From the IMG/VR virus record IMGVR_UViG_2740892235_000003: a DNA stretch of 16,130 nt; one strand, written 5' to 3'. Origin of the DNA: a virus (taxonomy: Duplodnaviria; Heunggongvirae; Uroviricota; Caudoviricetes). The position numbers were made by a program, and so were the translations under genes. The notes beneath the pieces were generated by a model. The model was given only the letters and a program-made list of their open reading frames with translations. It searched no databases and had not been told where the DNA came from. Positions 9,649 to 16,130 of the stretch are shown here, piece after piece; the stretch's first letter is position 1, and each line of letters starts with the position of its first letter.

Positions 9649-10398
9649 ATGGCAACACCAAATCCTCTTGAGCCGGTGAAAGGTTCCGGTACCACACTGT
9701 GGGTGTACACCGGCACTGGTGATGCTTATGCAAACCCGTTGTCAGACGATGACTGGCAGCGACTGGCGAAGGTGAAGGATCTGACCCCCGGCGAGATGAC
9801 GGCAGAATCCTACGATGATAACTATCTGGATGATGAGGATGCTGACTGGGTATCCACCGGGCAGGGGCAGAAATCTGCCGGTGACACCAGTTTTACGCTG
9901 GCCTGGAAGCCGGGTGAGAAAGGGCAGCGCGATTTGATTGCCTGGTTTGACAGCAGTGAGAGCCGGGCCTACAAAATTCGCTTCCCGAACGGTACGGTGG
10001 ATGTGTTCCGTGGCTGGGTGAGCGCCATTGGTAAAGCGGTGACCGCCAAAGAGGTGATCACCCGTACGGTAAAAATCACCAATATCGGTCGTCCGTCGCT
10101 GGCGGAAGATCAGGGGGACATCACACCGGTCACCGGTATTACCGTGACGCCACCAACGGGCAATGTGGCAAAAGGTCAGAATATCACCCTGACCGTGGCT
10201 GTTCAGCCGGAAGGGGCGACGGATAAAACCTTCCGTGCCACGTCGGCGAATCAGAATTTTGCGACCATTACCGTGAAAGGGAACACGATCACCGTGAAAG
10301 GTGTTGCGGCCGGTAAAGCGCAGATCCCTGTGGTTACCGGCAATGGTGAGTTTGCGGCAGTGGCGGAAATTACCGTCACGGATGGTGCAGCGGGTTAA
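9649..10398 (+). CDS. V: Major tail tube protein V with C-terminal Ig-like (Big_2-type) domain
   Basis: 249 aa. [62 protein letters not shown] and C-terminal [18 protein letters not shown] match lambda gpV nearly residue for residue in blocks. Confidence 0.92.
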
Positions 10399-10417
10399 GC
10401 TGAGGGAGTGATAAAGC

Positions 10418-10849
10418 ATGTTTCTGAAAACAGAACAATTTGAATATAACGGTGTGTCTGTCACGCTTTCTGAGCTGTCTGCGCTGCAGCGTATTGAGCA
10501 TCTTGCCCTCCTGAAACGGCGGGCAGAAGAGGCTGAAGTCAGCGGTAACCTGCAGGTGAGCGTGGAGGACCTTGTCAGAACCGGGGCGTTTCTGGTGGCG
10601 ATGTCCCTGTGGCATAACCATCCACAGAAAACGGCGTCACCGTCAATGAATGAGGCTGTGATGAAGATAGAGCAGGAAGTGCTCACCACCTGGCCTGCCG
10701 ATGCCATTGCCCGGGCGGAAGACATTGTGTTGTGCCTGTCCGGGATGATCGAAGCTGTTCGTCCGGATACTGATATTACTGAAGTGGCGAAAAATAACGC
10801 GCTGACTGATGATGATTTTTCTGCGGGAAAGTCTTCGACGGCGAGCTGA
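10418..10849 (+). CDS. G: Tail assembly chaperone G
   Basis: 143 aa. MFLKTE.FE.NGV.VTLSELSALQRIEHLAL and FLVAMSLWHNHPQKT match lambda gpG. RBS GGGAG upstream. Confidence 0.9.
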   Translation: MFLKTEQFEYNGVSVTLSELSALQRIEHLALLKRRAEEAEVSGNLQVSVEDLVRTGAFLVAMSLWHNHPQKTASPSMNEAVMKIEQEVLTTWPADAIARAEDIVLCLSGMIEAVRPDTDITEVAKNNALTDDDFSAGKSSTAS

Positions 10850-11280
10850 ACTTTGCCCTCAGACTGGCGCGTGAGATGGGGAGACCCGACTGGCGCGCCA
10901 TGCTTGCCGGGATGACATCCACCGAATATGCCGACTGGCGACGTTTTTACCGCACGCATTATTTTCATGATACCCAGCTGGATATGCATTTTTCCGGGCT
11001 GACGTACGCCGTACTCAGCCTGTTTTTTTGCGATCCGGATATGCATCCCTCTGATTTCAGTCTGCTGGCACCCCGACGTGATGATGAGCAGACGGAGATG
11101 CCGGATGAGGAGGATATGCTGATGCGGAAAGCGGCAGGACTTTCTGGTGGTGTCCGCTTTGGGGCTGACGGGAAGGAAATCGTTACGGTCAGTGATGACA
11201 TGCGGAGCAGTACAGAGGATGAAGCCATGCTGATGATGGTGTCTGAGGGAATTCCAGGAGGTGTACGCTATGGCGGGTAA
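10418..11280 (+). CDS. GT: Tail assembly protein G-T fusion, produced by programmed -1 ribosomal frameshift at the GGGAAAG heptamer (10825-10831)
   Basis: The -1 frame after the heptamer reads GKVFDGELNFALRLAREMGRPDWRAMLAGM..., continuing into track ORF 10876..11280 (T domain, ending GGVRYGG), which matches lambda gpT. There is no independent start with an RBS for the T frame. Confidence 0.85.
10825..10831 (+). other. Slippery heptanucleotide G GGA AAG (X XXY YYZ) for the -1 frameshift between G and T
   Basis: Exact heptamer in the G zero frame (codons GGA AAG = G K of ...SAGKSS), 6 codons before the G stop. Same site as in lambda. Confidence 0.85.
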
Positions 11281-13903
11281 TTTTGCCGATCTGACAGCTG
11301 TTCTTACACTGGATTCAACCCGTTTTTCTGAAGAGGCTGCACGGGTAAAGAAAGAACTGGGTGAAACCAGTGACCTTGCGGATTTGATGGCCGGGCGTGT
11401 CAGCCAGTCTTTTAAGAAACAGGCCGCTGCTGTTGAGCAGGGGCTGAGCCGCCAGGCGCTGGCTGCACAAAAAGCCGGGATTTCCGTCGGGCAGTATAAA
11501 GCGGCCATGCGAACCCTGCCCGCACAGTTTACGGATATCGCCACGCAGCTTGCCGGTGGTCAGAATCCCTGGCTCATCCTGCTGCAACAGGGCGGTCAGG
11601 TGAAGGACTCATTTGGCGGGATGATCCCCATGTTCCGGGGGCTTGCCGGTGCGATCAGCCTGCCGATGGTCGGGGTCACCTCGCTGGCGGTGGCGACCGG
11701 TGCGCTGGCGTACGCCTGGTACCAGGGGGATTCCACGCTTTCAGCGTTTAATAAAACCCTGGTTCTTTCCGGTAATCAGTCAGGACTGACGGCAGAGCGC
11801 ATGCTGACGCTCTCCAGAGCCGGGCAGGCGGCAGGGCTGACGTTTAACCAGGCGGGAGAGTCACTGGCAGCCCTGGTCAGTGCCGGTGTGCGTGGTGGTG
11901 AACAGTTTGATGCCATTAACCAGAGTGTGGCGCGTTTTGCGTCTGCCTCCGGTGTGGAGGTGGACAAGGTTGCAGAGGCTTTCGGAAAACTGACCACCGA
12001 CCCGACGTCGGGACTGATGGCGATGGCGCGCCAGTTCCGTAACGTGACGGCAGAGCAGATTGCGTATGTTGCACAGCTGCAGCGTTCCGGAGACGAGGCC
12101 GGTGCCTTACAGGCGGCGAACGATGCTGCCACGAAAGGCTTTGATGAGCAGACCCGTCGCCTGAAAGAGAACATGGGGACGCTGGAAACCTGGGCGGATA
12201 AAACAGGGAAGGCGTTCAAATCGATGTGGGATGCCATTCTGGATATCGGTCGTCCGGAATCTTCTGCGGACATGCTCGCCAGTGCGCAGAAGGCATTTGA
12301 TGAGGCGGATAAAAAATGGCAGTGGTACCAGAGCCGGAGCCAGCGCCGCGGTAAAACCTCCTCTTTCCGGGCCAACCTTCAGGGTGCATGGGATGACCGG
12401 GAAAATGCCCGTCTGGGGCTGGCGGCGGCAACGCTGCAGTCGGATATGGAAAAAGCCGGTGAACTGGCGGCAAGGGACAGGGCTGAGCGTGAGGCGTCAC
12501 AGCTGAAGTATACCGGAGAGGCGCAGAAAGCGTATGAACGCCTGCTGTCGCCGCTGGATAAATATACCGCCCGTCAGGAAGAACTGAACAGGGCCCTGAG
12601 AGACGGGAAAATCCTGCAGGCGGATTACAACACGCTGATGGCGTCGGCGAAAAAGGATTATGAATCGACGCTGAAAAAACCGAAGTCGTCAGGTGCGAAG
12701 GTGTCTGCCGGTGAGCGCCAGGAAGACCGGGCACATGCTGCCCTGCTGGCGCTTGAAACCGAGCTCCGGACGCTGGAGAAGCACAGCGGTGCGAATGAGA
12801 AAATCAGCCAGCAGCGCCGTGATTTATGGAAGGCGGAAAGCCAGTATGCCGTGTTACATGAAAAGCTGCTTGCGGATGCACAGGCCGGACAGAAAAAATC
12901 ACTTACATTGCAGGAAAAATCCCTGCTGGCTCATGAGAAAGAAACGCTGGAGTACAAACGCCAGCTGGCTGAGCTGGGTGACAAGGTGGAGCACCAGAAA
13001 CGCCTGAATGAGCTGGCACAGCAGGCAGCACGGTTTGAAGAGCAACAGAGCGCGAAGCAGGCCGCCATCAGCGCAAAAGCCCGCGGTCTCACTGACCGTC
13101 AGGCGCAGCGGGAGTCTGAAGCGCAGCGTCTTCGTGACGTGTATGGTGATAATCCGCAGGTGCTGGCACAGGTCACCGGGGCACTGAAACAGACATGGGC
13201 GGATGAAGACATGCTGCGCGGTGACTGGCTGGCCGGTCTGAAGTCCGGCTGGGGTGAGTGGACGGAAAGTGCGACGGACAGTTTTTCGCAGGTTAAAAGT
13301 GCTGCCACGCAGACCTTTGACGGTATTGCACAGAATATGACGGCGATGCTGACCGGTGCAGAGGCAGACTGGCGGGGATTCACCCGTTCGGTGCTGTCCA
13401 TGATGACAGAAATCCTGCTTAAACAGGCCATGGTGGGCATTGTCGGGCGTATCGGCAGCGCCATTGGTGGTGCTTTCGGTGGTGGGGCGTCTGCCTCCAC
13501 GGGGACGGCCATTGAGGCTGCGGCGGCGAACTTTCATTTTGCGACCGGCGGATTTACGGGCACGGGCGGCAAATATGAGCCTGCGGGGATAGTTCACCGC
13601 GGGGAGTTTGTCTTCACGAAGGAGGCAACCAGCCGGATAGGCGTGGGGAATCTTTACCGTCTGATGCGCGGCTATGCGGAAGGGGGGTATGTGGGTGGTG
13701 CCGGAAGTCCGGCGCAGATGCGGCGGGCGGAAGGTATTAATTTTAATCAGAACAATCACGTGGTGATTCAGAACGACGGTATCAACGGACAGGCGGGGCC
13801 GCAGCTGATGAAGGCGGTGTATGACATGGCCCGCAAGGGGGCGCAGGATGAACTCCGGCTGCAGTTGCGTGATGGCGGTATGTTATCAGGGAGCGGGCGA
13901 TGA
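11261..13903 (+). CDS. H: Tail tape measure protein H
   Basis: 880 aa with long blocks matching lambda gpH (SRQALAAQKAGISVGQYKAAMR, GGQVKDSFGGMIPMFRGLAGAI, KYEPAGIVHRGEFVFTKEATSRIGVGNLYRLMRGYA, C-terminal MRDGG). Start is probably ATG 11270 (MAGNFADL); 11261 is the first in-frame ATG, overlapping the end of T. Confidence 0.92.
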   Translation: MYAMAGNFADLTAVLTLDSTRFSEEAARVKKELGETSDLADLMAGRVSQSFKKQAAAVEQGLSRQALAAQKAGISVGQYKAAMRTLPAQFTDIATQLAGGQNPWLILLQQGGQVKDSFGGMIPMFRGLAGAISLPMVGVTSLAVATGALAYAWYQGDSTLSAFNKTLVLSGNQSGLTAERMLTLSRAGQAAGLTFNQAGESLAALVSAGVRGGEQFDAINQSVARFASASGVEVDKVAEAFGKLTTDPTSGLMAMARQFRNVTAEQIAYVAQLQRSGDEAGALQAANDAATKGFDEQTRRLKENMGTLETWADKTGKAFKSMWDAILDIGRPESSADMLASAQKAFDEADKKWQWYQSRSQRRGKTSSFRANLQGAWDDRENARLGLAAATLQSDMEKAGELAARDRAEREASQLKYTGEAQKAYERLLSPLDKYTARQEELNRALRDGKILQADYNTLMASAKKDYESTLKKPKSSGAKVSAGERQEDRAHAALLALETELRTLEKHSGANEKISQQRRDLWKAESQYAVLHEKLLADAQAGQKKSLTLQEKSLLAHEKETLEYKRQLAELGDKVEHQKRLNELAQQAARFEEQQSAKQAAISAKARGLTDRQAQRESEAQRLRDVYGDNPQVLAQVTGALKQTWADEDMLRGDWLAGLKSGWGEWTESATDSFSQVKSAATQTFDGIAQNMTAMLTGAEADWRGFTRSVLSMMTEILLKQAMVGIVGRIGSAIGGAFGGGASASTGTAIEAAAANFHFATGGFTGTGGKYEPAGIVHRGEFVFTKEATSRIGVGNLYRLMRGYAEGGYVGGAGSPAQMRRAEGINFNQNNHVVIQNDGINGQAGPQLMKAVYDMARKGAQDELRLQLRDGGMLSGSGR

Positions 13904-14346
13904 AAACCTTTCGCTGGAAAGTGAAGCCGGATATGGAGGTGAACTCGCAGCCATCGGTGCGTGAAGTGCGTTTTGGTGACGGGTACTCACAGCGTATGGC
14001 GGCAGGGCTGAATGCTGACCTGAAGACGTACAGGGTGATGCTTTCCGTGACCCGGGAGGAGGCCCGGCATCTGGAAGCGTTCCTGGCAGAGCACGGGGGC
14101 TGGAAGGCATTTTTGTGGAAGCCACCCTATGNNNNNNNNNNAACATACCGGGTGATGCTTTCCGTGAGCCGGGAGGAGGCCCGGCATCTGGAAGCGTTCC
14201 TGGCAGAGCACGGGGGCTGGAAGGCATTTTTGTGGAAGCCACCCTATGCATACCGGCAGATAAAGGTGACCTGTGCCGGGTGGTCTGCGCGGGTCGGGAT
14301 GTTGCGCGTTGAGTTCAGCGCGGAGTTTAAGCAGGTGGTGAACTGA
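13900..14346 (+). CDS. M: Minor tail protein M; inflated by a scaffold join (N run 14132-14141 with unmerged overlap about 14029-14131 / 14145-14248)
   Basis: MKTFRWKVKP, VRFGDGYSQR, LKTYRVMLSV.REEA, GGWKAFLWKPPY and IKVTCAGWSARVGMLRVEFSAEFKQVVN match lambda gpM (about 109 aa). The 148-aa track ORF contains the duplicated block. Start overlaps the H stop (ATGA). Confidence 0.88.
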   Translation: MKTFRWKVKPDMEVNSQPSVREVRFGDGYSQRMAAGLNADLKTYRVMLSVTREEARHLEAFLAEHGGWKAFLWKPPYXXXXTYRVMLSVSREEARHLEAFLAEHGGWKAFLWKPPYAYRQIKVTCAGWSARVGMLRVEFSAEFKQVVN

Positions 14347-15285
14347 TGCAGGATATTCACGAAGCAAGCCTGAACGAGTCGGTTAAATCAGAGCAGTCAC
14401 CGCGGGTGGTGCTCTGGGAAATCGACCTGACGGTGCAGGGCGGTGAGCGGTATTTTTTCTGCAATGAGCTGAATGAAAAAGGGGAGCCGGTGACCTGGCA
14501 GGGGCGTGAATATCAGGCGTACCCGATTGAGGGCAGTGGCTTTGAGATGAACGGAAAGGGCAGCAGTGCCCGCCCGTCGCTGACAGTGTCCAATCTTTTC
14601 GGCCTTGTCACCGGGATGGCGGAGGATTTGCAGAGCCTGGTGGGGGCCACGGTGGTCCGCCGCCGNNNNNNNNNNACAGGGCGGTGAGCGGTATTTTTTC
14701 TGTAATGAGCTGAATGAAAAAGGGGAGCCGGTGACCTGGCAGGGGCGGAAGTATGAGGCGTACCCGATTGAGGGCAGCGGCTTTGAGATGAACGGAAAGG
14801 GCAGCAGTGCCCGCCCGTCGCTGACAGTGTCCAATCTTTTCGGGCTGGTCACCGGGATGGCGGAGGATTTGCAGAGCCTGGTGGGTGCCACGGTGGTCCG
14901 TCGCCGGGTGTATGCGCGTTTTCTGGATGCGGTGAATTTTGTGGCAGGCAATCCTGAGGCCGACCCGGAGCAGGAGCTGACGGACCGGTGGGTGGTGGAG
15001 CAGATGTCATCGCTGACGGCCATGACGGCCTCGTTTGTGCTGGCGACACCGACGGAGACGGACGGGGCGCTGTTTCCCGGTCGCATCATGCTGGCGAACA
15101 CCTGTATGTGGGATTACCGGGGCGATGAGTGCGGGTATAACGGTCCGGCAGTGGCGGATGAGTTCGACAACCCTACCACGGATATCCGGAAGGACAGATG
15201 CAGTAAATGCATGCGCGGGTGTGAGATGCGCGGCATGGTGGCTAATTTCGGCGGTTTCCTTTCCATTAATAAACTTTCGCAGTAA
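14346..15285 (+). CDS. L: Minor tail protein L; frame interrupted by a scaffold join (N run 14666-14675 with unmerged overlap 14436-14665 / 14677-14906)
   Basis: MQDI, VVLWEIDLT, GGERYFFCNE.NEKGEPVTWQGR.YQ, SGFE.NGKG, VSNL.G.VTGMAED.QSLVG and C-terminal NFGGFLSINKLSQ with a Cys cluster (CGY...CSKC..GC) match lambda gpL. The track ORFs 14346..14687 and 14605..15285 are the two halves. Confidence 0.88.
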
Positions 15286-15295
15286 ATCCCGTTTT

Positions 15296-15525
15296 ATGAC
15301 ACAGACTGAATCAGCGATTCTGGCGCATGCCCGGCGGTGTGTGCCAGCGGAGTCGTGCGGCTTCGTGATAAGCACCCCGGAGGGGGAGCGGTACCAGCCC
15401 TGCGTGAATATCTCCGCAGAGCCGGAGGCGTATTTTCGTATTGCACCGGAAGACTGGCTGCAGGCACAGATGCAGGGGGAGATTGTGGCGCTGGTCCACA
15501 GTCATCCCGGTGGTCTGCCCTGGCT
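15296..15525 (+). CDS. K: Minor tail protein K, N-terminal 76 aa only (truncated at scaffold join 15526-15535)
   Basis: MTQTESAILAHARRCVPAESCGFVISTPEGERYQPCVNISAEPEAYFRIAPEDWLQAQMQGEIVALVHSHPGGLPW is near-identical to the lambda gpK N-terminus. True start is ATG 15296 within track ORF 15035..15547. The sequence after the N run is not K but gpL. Confidence 0.85.
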
Positions 15526-15535
15526 NNNNNNNNNN

Positions 15536-16130
15536 GAGTGGCTTTGAGATGAACGGAAAGGGCAGCAGTGCCCGCCCGTCGCTGACGGTGTCCAATCTTT
15601 TCGGCCTTGTCACCGGGATGGCGGAGGATTTGCAGAGCCTGGTGGGGGCCACGGTGGTCCGCCGCCGGGTGTATGCGCGTTTTCTGGATGCGGTGAACTT
15701 TGTGGCAGGCAATCCTGAGGCAGACCCGGAGCAGGAGCTGACGGACCGGTGGGTGGTGGAGCAGATGTCAGCGCTGACGGCCATGACGGCCTCGTTTGTG
15801 CTNNNNNNNNNNTTTTGTGGCGGGGAATCCGGAGGCCGACCCGGAGCAGGAGCTGACGGACCGGTGGGTGGTGGAGCAGATGTCAGCGCTGACGGCCATG
15901 ACGGCCTCGTTTGTGCTGGCGACACCGACGGAGACGGACGGTGCGCTGTTTCCCGGTCGCATCATGCTGGCGAACACCTGTATGTGGGATTACCGGGGCG
16001 ATGAATGCGGGTATAACGGTCCGGCAGTGGCGGATGAGTTCGACAACCCCACCACGGATATCCGGAAGGACAGATGCAGTAAATGCATGCGCGGGTGTGA
16101 GATGCGCGGCATGGTGGCTAATTTCGGCGG
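15536..16130 (+). repeat. Redundant variant copies of gpL segments (15536-15802 resembles the L middle; 15813-16130 resembles the L C-terminal third), separated by N runs; assembly artefact, not additional genes
   Basis: Direct comparison: 15536-15802 repeats the gpL middle segment seen around 14530-15050, and 15813-16130 repeats about 14937-15255, with scattered substitutions. Each block is bounded by exactly 10 N. Confidence 0.75.

What the first reader, a model, noticed from the sequence alone, without database searches (positions are those of the whole stretch)
15296..16130. gpK is cut off after 76 codons and followed by third and fourth variant copies of gpL
After the N run at 15526-15535 the sequence jumps back into the middle of gpL, and after 15803-15812 it jumps to the gpL C-terminal region. 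With the two copies inside the gene itself, up to four non-identical versions of some gpL segments are present. The rest of K and the expected downstream I/J genes are missing from this window. This points to several related lambdoid prophages with near-identical tail modules whose reads could not be resolved, so the 3' end should not be read as gene order.
Basis: seen in the sequence. Interest (0 to 1): 0.45.

Follow-up and report, generated by a model that had tools for sequence, protein, structure and literature searches.

The report
Assembly artefact in prophage tail genes
The "cut-off K gene followed by extra pieces of gene L" is not a real gene order: a short-read assembler wrote alternative versions of a tail gene, shared by several related prophages, one after another in a draft E. 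coli record, so the finding is ordinary.

Summary
K stops after 76 codons at a 10-N run. The next two pieces (15536-15802, 15813-16130) are partial copies of gene L, covering L nt 189-455 and 351-668. No base of L is present in more than three versions, not four.

The window is a complete public draft record (CCQJ01000063.1, 16,130 b), so it ends where the record ends. All seven gaps are exactly 10 N and split the record into eight pieces.

- Every piece after a gap starts at a base that differs from the piece it overlaps.
- Every piece ends exactly 80 b after its last distinguishing base. This is the signature of de Bruijn graph bubble arms with k = 81.
- K is "cut" at nt 230 because the last variant in that piece is at K nt 150.
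- Threading the pieces 5-7-8 (S5-S7-S8) by their heads reproduces the M-L sequence of closed genome CP146507.1 with 0 mismatches in 997.
- The copies differ mainly at third codon positions (19 of 22 sites), so they are real alleles, not read errors.
- Closed E. coli genomes always show M-L-K-I-J, often in several prophages per genome.

Verdict: scaffold artefact of a multi-copy lambdoid tail module. Interest is low.

The parts
13900..14131 (+). Gene M (minor tail protein), nt 1-232, at the tail of piece S4 (5984-14131). The last 107 b are repeated at the head of S5.
   Evidence: PF05939 Phage_min_tail, E 1e-28. The overlap with S5 is 107 b with 4 differences, and S4 ends 80 b after the last one.
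14132..14141 (.). 10-N spacer between pieces S4 and S5
14142..14665 (+). Piece S5: the rest of M (to 14346) and L nt 1-320 (14346-14665). Its head follows the CP146507.1-type haplotype and its tail the L001-type haplotype.
   Evidence: PF05100, E 1.1e-32; variant table. S5 ends 80 b after its last difference from S7, so S7, not S6, is its graph partner.
14666..14675 (.). 10-N spacer between S5 and S6
14676..15525 (+). Piece S6, a third haplotype: L nt 90-699 (to the stop at 15285), the intergenic stretch, and K nt 1-230 (15296-15525).
   Evidence: PF05100, E 3e-92, and PF14464 Prok-JAB, E 4.5e-12. The best match in 5,426 closed E. coli genomes is 98.8%. Its alleles occur in mosaic fashion in CP061914.1 and CP027366.1. 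It ends 80 b after its last difference from the CP146507.1 copy, at window 15445 = K nt 150.
15296..15525 (+). K fragment: 76 codons plus 2 nt, open reading frame up to the N run. Full-length K in closed genomes is 247 aa, with Prok-JAB and NlpC/P60 domains.
15526..15535 (.). 10-N spacer between S6 and S7. This is the only join where the right piece does not overlap the tail of the left piece.
15536..15802 (+). Piece S7: L nt 189-455, the alternative bubble arm that follows S5. It lies wholly inside the span of S6.
   Evidence: PF05100, E 9.5e-36. Its first base is a variant site. It ends 80 b after its last difference from S8. Best closed-genome match 99.6%.
15803..15812 (.). 10-N spacer between S7 and S8
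15813..16130 (+). Piece S8: L nt 351-668, the alternative arm that follows S7. It is identical to CP146507.1 and ends, together with the record, 80 b after its last difference from S6.
   Evidence: PF05100, E 2.8e-42. 318/318 identity to L003, L004 and L006. 80-b rule.
2832..2841 (.). 10-N spacer with the same signature (162-b duplicated flank), inside the terminase large-subunit gene
4592..4601 (.). 10-N spacer with the same signature (159-b duplicated flank), inside the portal gene
5974..5983 (.). 10-N spacer with the same signature (144-b duplicated flank), at the start of the protease/capsid gene

Best explanation
The region is a layout artefact of a short-read de Bruijn graph assembly (inferred k = 81) of a genome that holds at least three near-identical copies of the lambda-type tail-tip genes M-L-K, most likely in separate lambdoid prophages.

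Where the copies differ, the graph forms bubbles. One arm stays attached to the upstream contig and stops 80 b (k-1) after its last variant. The other arm is emitted as a new piece that starts exactly at its first variant base and keeps the downstream sequence. The scaffolding step could not merge the mismatching overlaps. It wrote the pieces in order of their start position with a fixed 10-N spacer.

S7 and S8 are the alternative arms that belong after S5. They fall inside the span of the longer third-haplotype piece S6, so they were written after it. That creates the appearance of 'K truncated, then more L'. K stops at nt 230 because S6's last distinguishing base is at K nt 150. The record then ends because everything downstream is shared multi-copy sequence.

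Shown directly: the piece structure, the 80-b rule, the haplotype threading, the allele-like nature of the differences, and the normal M-L-K-I-J order in closed genomes. Inferred: the type of assembler, and that all copies sit in one genome.
For: 1. The window equals the whole public record CCQJ01000063.1 of GCA_000753315.1 (16,130 b), so the end of the window is the end of a draft scaffold.
2. There are seven gaps, all exactly 10 N. At six of them the tail of the left piece repeats the head of the right piece (107-231 b, 1.4-4.8% different, no indels).
3. All seven right-hand pieces begin at a base that differs from the piece they overlap.
4. Pieces S1, S2, S3, S4, S5, S7 and S8 each end exactly 80 b after the last base that differs from their partner. 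S6 ends exactly 80 b after its last difference from the CP146507.1 copy.
5. Tiling S4-S5-S7-S8 and switching at the first base of each right-hand piece gives the M-L sequence of closed genome CP146507.1 with 0/997 mismatches. Keeping the left tails instead gives a second haplotype that is 3/997 from NZ_AP027246.1.
6. On closed-genome coordinates the pieces start at 12756, 13049, 13148 and 13310, so they are sorted by start, and S7 and S8 are nested in S6.
7. Of the 22 sites in L where the window copies differ, 19 are third codon positions (binomial p = 4e-7). All six 5'-most variant sites of S6 match L011 and its later L-gene variants match L010, leaving only window 14937 and three sites in the K fragment (15342, 15385, 15388) unmatched by either.
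8. The 2,231-b region collapses onto 1,268 b of M-L-K in closed E. coli genomes, and I and J follow. 2,308 of 5,426 closed genomes carry the module, with a median of 2 and up to 13-15 places per genome. One closed genome (CP023165.1) has three separate prophages with full M-L-K-I-J whose L-K copies differ by 3-13 in 939 b.
9. No closed genome has K nt 230 joined directly to L nt 189.
10. PMC9453080 states that STEC assemble into fragmented drafts with short reads because of the extensive, partly homologous phage complement.
Against: - No reads or depth information were available, so the copy number in this strain is not measured.
- S6 (best 98.8%) and S7 (best 99.6%) have no exact counterpart in closed genomes. 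They may be graph chimeras or true recombinants.
- The expected alternative arm for the K bubble (about 184 b) is not in the record. I can only guess that it fell below a length cut-off.
- The assembler is not documented. No paper citing the accession was found.
Confidence: 0.93

Rival explanations
1. The arrangement is real: the strain has a rearranged tail module in which K is truncated after 76 codons and partial, diverged copies of L follow it in tandem.
For: Only that the public record is written this way. Lambdoid prophages do recombine, and defective prophages with partial genes exist (own knowledge).
Against: - Every junction is an N run, not sequence.
- K has no stop, frameshift or insertion at the break.
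- The break points obey an exact 80-b rule tied to variant sites, which biology would not produce.
- S5-S7-S8 thread into an intact known L gene with 0/997 mismatches.
- No junction-spanning match exists in 5,426 closed genomes.
Confidence: 0.01
2. The several versions come from a mixed sample (two or more strains, or a contaminated culture, each with one such prophage) and not from several prophages in one genome. The assembler artefact is otherwise the same.
For: Sequence alone cannot tell co-resident copies from copies in different cells. At least three haplotypes are needed.
Against: - Closed single-strain genomes routinely hold 2-15 copies of this module. CP023165.1 shows three in one chromosome with the same scale of divergence.
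- The record belongs to a genome assembly, not a metagenome.
- One genome with several prophages is the simpler reading.
Confidence: 0.06
3. The pieces were ordered by mapping contigs to a reference genome and joining them with 10 N, not by a paired-end scaffolder. The nested pieces S7 and S8 follow S6 simply because contigs were sorted by mapped start.
For: The piece starts are strictly sorted on closed-genome coordinates (12756 < 13049 < 13148 < 13310) even though S7 and S8 lie inside S6. The spacer length is fixed.
Against: Nothing distinguishes this from a scaffolder that sorts by estimated position and uses a minimum gap. The break points themselves come from the graph in either case. This rival changes only the layout step, not the verdict.
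Confidence: 0.2
4. The differences between copies are sequencing or consensus errors at low-quality contig ends, and only one copy exists.
For: None beyond the location of the duplications at piece ends.
Against: - There are no indels.
- 19 of 22 sites are at codon position 3 (p = 4e-7).
- The heads match a closed genome 997/997.
- The alleles compared against closed genomes recur there.
Confidence: 0.01

Closest known systems
Unmerged bubble arms (false duplications) in de Bruijn graph assemblies of repeats or heterozygous regions
   Same: Two or three near-identical versions of one stretch are written in series with a fixed spacer. Pieces start at a variant base and end k-1 bases after the last one. 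The duplicated flanks mismatch at a few per cent.
   Different: The variants here are most likely paralogous prophage copies in a haploid genome, not alleles of a diploid. The assembler and its settings are inferred, not documented.
Lambda tail-tip module M-L-K-I-J of lambdoid (including Stx-converting) prophages of E. coli
   Same: The gene content and order up to K, the Pfam families PF05939, PF05100 and PF14464, and 95-100% DNA identity to closed STEC prophages and Stx phages.
   Different: In the window K lacks its last 171 codons, including the NlpC/P60 domain, and I and J are absent. This is because the record ends, not because the genes are missing from the phage.
Multi-prophage STEC genomes with partly homologous lambdoid prophages
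   Same: Closed relatives hold 2-15 copies of this module that differ by 0.3-1.4% or more. The literature describes the resulting fragmentation of short-read drafts (PMC9453080 and PMC9278759).
   Different: Such regions usually show up as contig breaks. Here a scaffolding step stitched the fragments into a misleading linear order.

Membership tests
Scaffold or assembly artefact (serially written graph bubble arms) | Junctions are gap characters of fixed length, not sequence | tested here: met
   Seven N runs, all exactly 10 N
Scaffold or assembly artefact (serially written graph bubble arms) | Break points are tied to variant sites by a constant k-1 offset | tested here: met
   7/7 right-hand pieces start on a variant base. 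7/7 pieces end exactly 80 b after the last difference from their partner, and S6 ends 80 b after its last difference from the CP146507.1 copy.
Scaffold or assembly artefact (serially written graph bubble arms) | Removing the redundancy restores a normal, known sequence | tested here: met
   S4-S5-S7-S8 head tiling equals CP146507.1 M-L with 0/997 mismatches. The 2,231 b collapse onto 1,268 b in closed genomes.
Scaffold or assembly artefact (serially written graph bubble arms) | Read depth and read pairs show collapsed shared stretches and no physical link across the odd junction | not testable with these tools
   No reads available
Phage minor tail protein L (Pfam PF05100) | Profile match above the curated cut-off | tested here: met
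   All four pieces match: 113.5, 308, 123.5 and 144.8 bits against a cut-off of 25
Lambda gpK-type tail-tip protein (Prok-JAB plus NlpC/P60) | N-terminal JAB/MPN domain | tested here: met
   PF14464, 46.3 bits against a cut-off of 25, profile positions 3-79 of 114
Lambda gpK-type tail-tip protein (Prok-JAB plus NlpC/P60) | C-terminal NlpC/P60 peptidase domain | tested here: not met
   Absent from the window because piece S6 ends at K nt 230. It is present in the 247-aa K of closed copies.
Genuine truncated gene (pseudogene) | The truncation is caused by a stop codon, frameshift, deletion end point or mobile-element insertion visible in sequence | tested here: not met
   The reading frame is open up to the N run and the break is a gap character
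Genuine tandem or segmental duplication | Contiguous sequence across the duplication junction, seen also in independent closed assemblies | tested here: not met
   The junctions are N runs. There is no junction-spanning match in 5,426 closed E. coli genomes. Closed loci show single M-L-K-I-J arrays.
Targeted hypervariation (for example a diversity-generating retroelement) | Changes concentrated at adenines of a template and altering amino acids in a variable region | tested here: not met
   19 of 22 differences are at third codon positions and involve all base types

The most novel reading that the evidence does not exclude
The mosaic pieces S6 and S7 have no exact match in 5,426 closed E. coli genomes. 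They could be true alleles rather than graph chimeras. That would mean this strain holds at least three co-resident prophages whose tail-tip genes L and K have exchanged short segments with one another. The evidence does not exclude this, but it would only add one more example of well-known recombination among lambdoid prophages.
Probability: 0.35. Interest if true: 0.12.

Novelty: not a real feature. Interest (0 to 1): 0.04.

Why it matters
The finding has no biological novelty. Its value is practical. The record is public, and its gene calls include artefactual proteins: a 148-aa "M" read through an N run, a 113-aa and a 202-aa "L", an 83-aa "K", and a 151-aa partial product. These can contaminate protein databases and pangenome counts. 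They can also be misread as pseudogenes or duplications in prophage surveys.

The 'starts on a variant, ends k-1 after the last variant' rule gives a quick way to recognise this class of artefact without reads.

Tried and rejected
- Looking up the tape-measure protein from the GTG start at 11261 found nothing. The ATG at 11270 gave the source record and closed relatives.
- A literature search for the accession (CCQJ01, GCA_000753315) found no paper, so the strain and assembler remain undocumented.
- A search for a published statement that a given assembler uses a minimum 10-N gap gave nothing usable. My recollection that Velvet behaves this way stays an unverified lead.
- I searched for exact closed-genome counterparts of S6 and S7. 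None was found: the best matches were 98.8% and 99.6%. This leaves open whether they are chimeras or true recombinants.
- My first variant table had an off-by-one offset for L001. It was redone.
- I considered and rejected four readings: a real rearrangement, read errors, a true pseudogene, and targeted hypervariation. See the rival explanations and the membership tests.
- I checked whether the third haplotype might come from a prophage with an ompC-like gene upstream of L, as in L011 and L014. The comparison was not informative.

Full report
**What is in the sequence.** The window has seven N runs, all exactly 10 N: 2832-2841, 4592-4601, 5974-5983, 14132-14141, 14666-14675, 15526-15535 and 15803-15812. 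They cut it into eight pieces, S1 to S8.

K begins at ATG 15296 and is open up to 15525. That is 230 nt, or 76 codons plus 2 nt, with no stop. Pfam identifies the genes:
- 13900-14131 is Phage_min_tail (M).
- 14346-14665 and 14677-15282 are Phage_tail_L.
- 15296-15525 is the first two thirds of a Prok-JAB domain (K).
- 15537-15802 and 15814-16130 are again Phage_tail_L, profile positions 36-123 and 90-189.

One detail is not. On L coordinates the four pieces cover nt 1-320 (S5), 90-699 (S6), 189-455 (S7) and 351-668 (S8). No base is present in more than three versions.

**Divergence per copy.** All differences are substitutions, with no indels.

| Pair | Differences |
|---|---|
| S5 vs S6 | 11/231 |
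| S5 vs S7 | 2/132 |
| S6 vs S7 | 10/267 |
| S6 vs S8 | 7/318 |
| S7 vs S8 | 5/105 |

**Where the window comes from.** An exact look-up of the tape-measure protein (ATG 11270 to 13903) returned NCBI record CCQJ01000063.1 of assembly GCA_000753315.1. The window is therefore a whole draft record. The rest of K and genes I and J are missing because the record stops, not because a larger sequence was cropped.

The same look-up returned closed chromosomes CP027452.1 and CP146507.1 with an identical tape-measure protein. There the order is H, M (109 aa), L (232 aa), K (247 aa, Prok-JAB plus NlpC/P60), I, J. Other closed genomes show the same order.

**Comparison with closed genomes.** The 2,231 b from 13900 to 16130 match closed E. 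coli chromosomes as five pieces that pile onto only 1,268 b of M-L-K. That is exactly the non-redundant length of the region. 2,308 of 5,426 closed genomes carry the module, with a median of two places and up to 13-15 places per genome.

A synthetic 80-nt query joined K nt 191-230 directly to L nt 189-228. At an E-value limit that only a junction-spanning match could pass, it found nothing in any closed genome.

In the single closed genome CP023165.1, three separate prophages (at 1.41, 1.60 and 2.55 Mb) each have full M-L-K-I-J. Their L-K(76) stretches differ by 3-13 substitutions in 939 b. Several slightly different copies in one genome is the normal state for these strains.

**The break points carry a graph signature.** At six of the seven joins the tail of the left piece repeats the head of the right piece (107-231 b). 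The exception is S6 to S7. Two exact regularities appear.
- Each of the seven right-hand pieces begins at a base that differs from the piece it overlaps.
- Each of S1, S2, S3, S4, S5, S7 and S8 ends exactly 80 b after the last base at which it differs from its partner.

By this rule the partner of S5 is S7, not S6. The partner of S7 is S8, and S8 merges into S6. S6 ends exactly 80 b after its last difference from the CP146507.1 copy. That difference is at window 15445, which is K nt 150, so S6 ends at K nt 230.

A constant offset of 80 with a start on the variant base is what bubble arms of a de Bruijn graph with k = 81 look like. This is an inference from how such graphs work. The assembler is not documented. 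From memory, Velvet stores nodes without their first k-1 bases and uses a minimum gap of 10 N, but I could not verify this.

**Threading the pieces.** I tiled S4-S5-S7-S8 in two ways.
- Switching to each right-hand piece at its first base gives 997 b from the M start. This is identical (0 mismatches) to M-L of CP146507.1.
- Keeping each left piece to its end gives a second haplotype that differs by 3/997 from NZ_AP027246.1.

S7 and S8 are therefore the continuation of the L gene begun in S5. They are not something downstream of K.

S6 is a third haplotype. In L nt 351-455, S6, S7 and S8 are three different sequences, and S6 has further alleles of its own. All six of its 5'-most variant sites match CP027366.1, and its later L-gene variants match CP061914.1. 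That leaves only window 14937 and three sites in the K fragment (15342, 15385, 15388) unmatched by either. No closed genome matches S6 better than 98.8% or S7 better than 99.6%. These two pieces are either true recombinants or paths that switch haplotype across shared stretches.

**The differences are real alleles.** Of the 22 sites in L where the window's copies differ, 19 are third codon positions (binomial p = 4e-7 against one third). There are no indels. Read error is excluded.

**Why S7 and S8 come after K.** On CP146507.1 coordinates the pieces span 12756-13279 (S5), 13049-13898 (S6), 13148-13414 (S7) and 13310-13627 (S8). They are written in order of start position. S6 is long and reaches into K, while S7 and S8 are short and nested inside it. 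Writing them in that order with a fixed 10-N spacer produces the apparent 'K cut off, then L again'. I cannot tell whether the ordering came from read pairs or from mapping to a reference.

**Verdict.** The finding is a scaffold artefact caused by at least three near-identical copies of the tail-tip module, most likely in separate lambdoid prophages of one STEC-like E. coli. The closest relatives are LEE-negative STEC such as O113:H21 strain 10.

The literature describes the underlying problem. [quoted passage not shown]

Two points remain open. Sequence alone cannot show that all copies sit in one genome rather than in a mixed culture. It also cannot show whether S6 and S7 are true recombinant alleles. 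Both need the reads or a long-read assembly. There is no new biology here, and interest is low.

Noticed in passing
window 2832-2841, 4592-4601, 5974-5983: The three upstream N runs show the same artefact: duplicated flanks of 162, 159 and 144 b, a right piece that starts on a variant base, and a left piece that ends 80 b after the last variant. They interrupt the terminase large-subunit, portal and protease/capsid genes, so those genes are also miscalled in the record.
   Followed up: yes
window 1-14131 (pieces S1-S4): The pieces differ in how well they match the same closed prophage (L003-L009): S1 97.5%, S2 99.6%, S3 100%, S4 99.8%. The scaffold as a whole is probably a chimera of contigs from different prophages, not one phage.
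   Followed up: partly
window 13900-16130 (gene calls of the source record, L007 12631-14861): The public record carries gene calls made across the artefact: a 148-aa M read through an N run, 113-aa and 202-aa L fragments, an 83-aa K fragment, and a 151-aa product running off the end. These bogus products sit in protein collections.
   Followed up: partly
L011 1538-2701 (CP027366.1) and L014 2455-3618 (CP023165.1): In some closed prophages a gene annotated as porin OmpC sits between the M-like tail gene and L, as cargo inside the tail module. The left part of piece S6 matches the L allele of one of these prophages (L011) exactly.
   Followed up: partly
window 224-691 and 1145-1621: An Rz lysis gene (PF03245) and a DUF1441 gene lie upstream of the terminase. 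The record therefore runs from the end of the lysis cassette through the head genes to the tail tip. Window 1-733 and 1016-1336 have no counterpart in the closed loci fetched.
   Followed up: no
window 5901-7916: One long ORF combines a ClpP-type protease with a major capsid domain (PF00574 plus PF25209 in the closed copies, 659-674 aa).
   Followed up: no
L013 5924-9001 (CP023165.1): One of the three prophages of this closed genome has a gpJ annotated as frameshifted and lacking its N-terminus. This is a genuine example of tail-module decay, for contrast with the artefact in the window.
   Followed up: no
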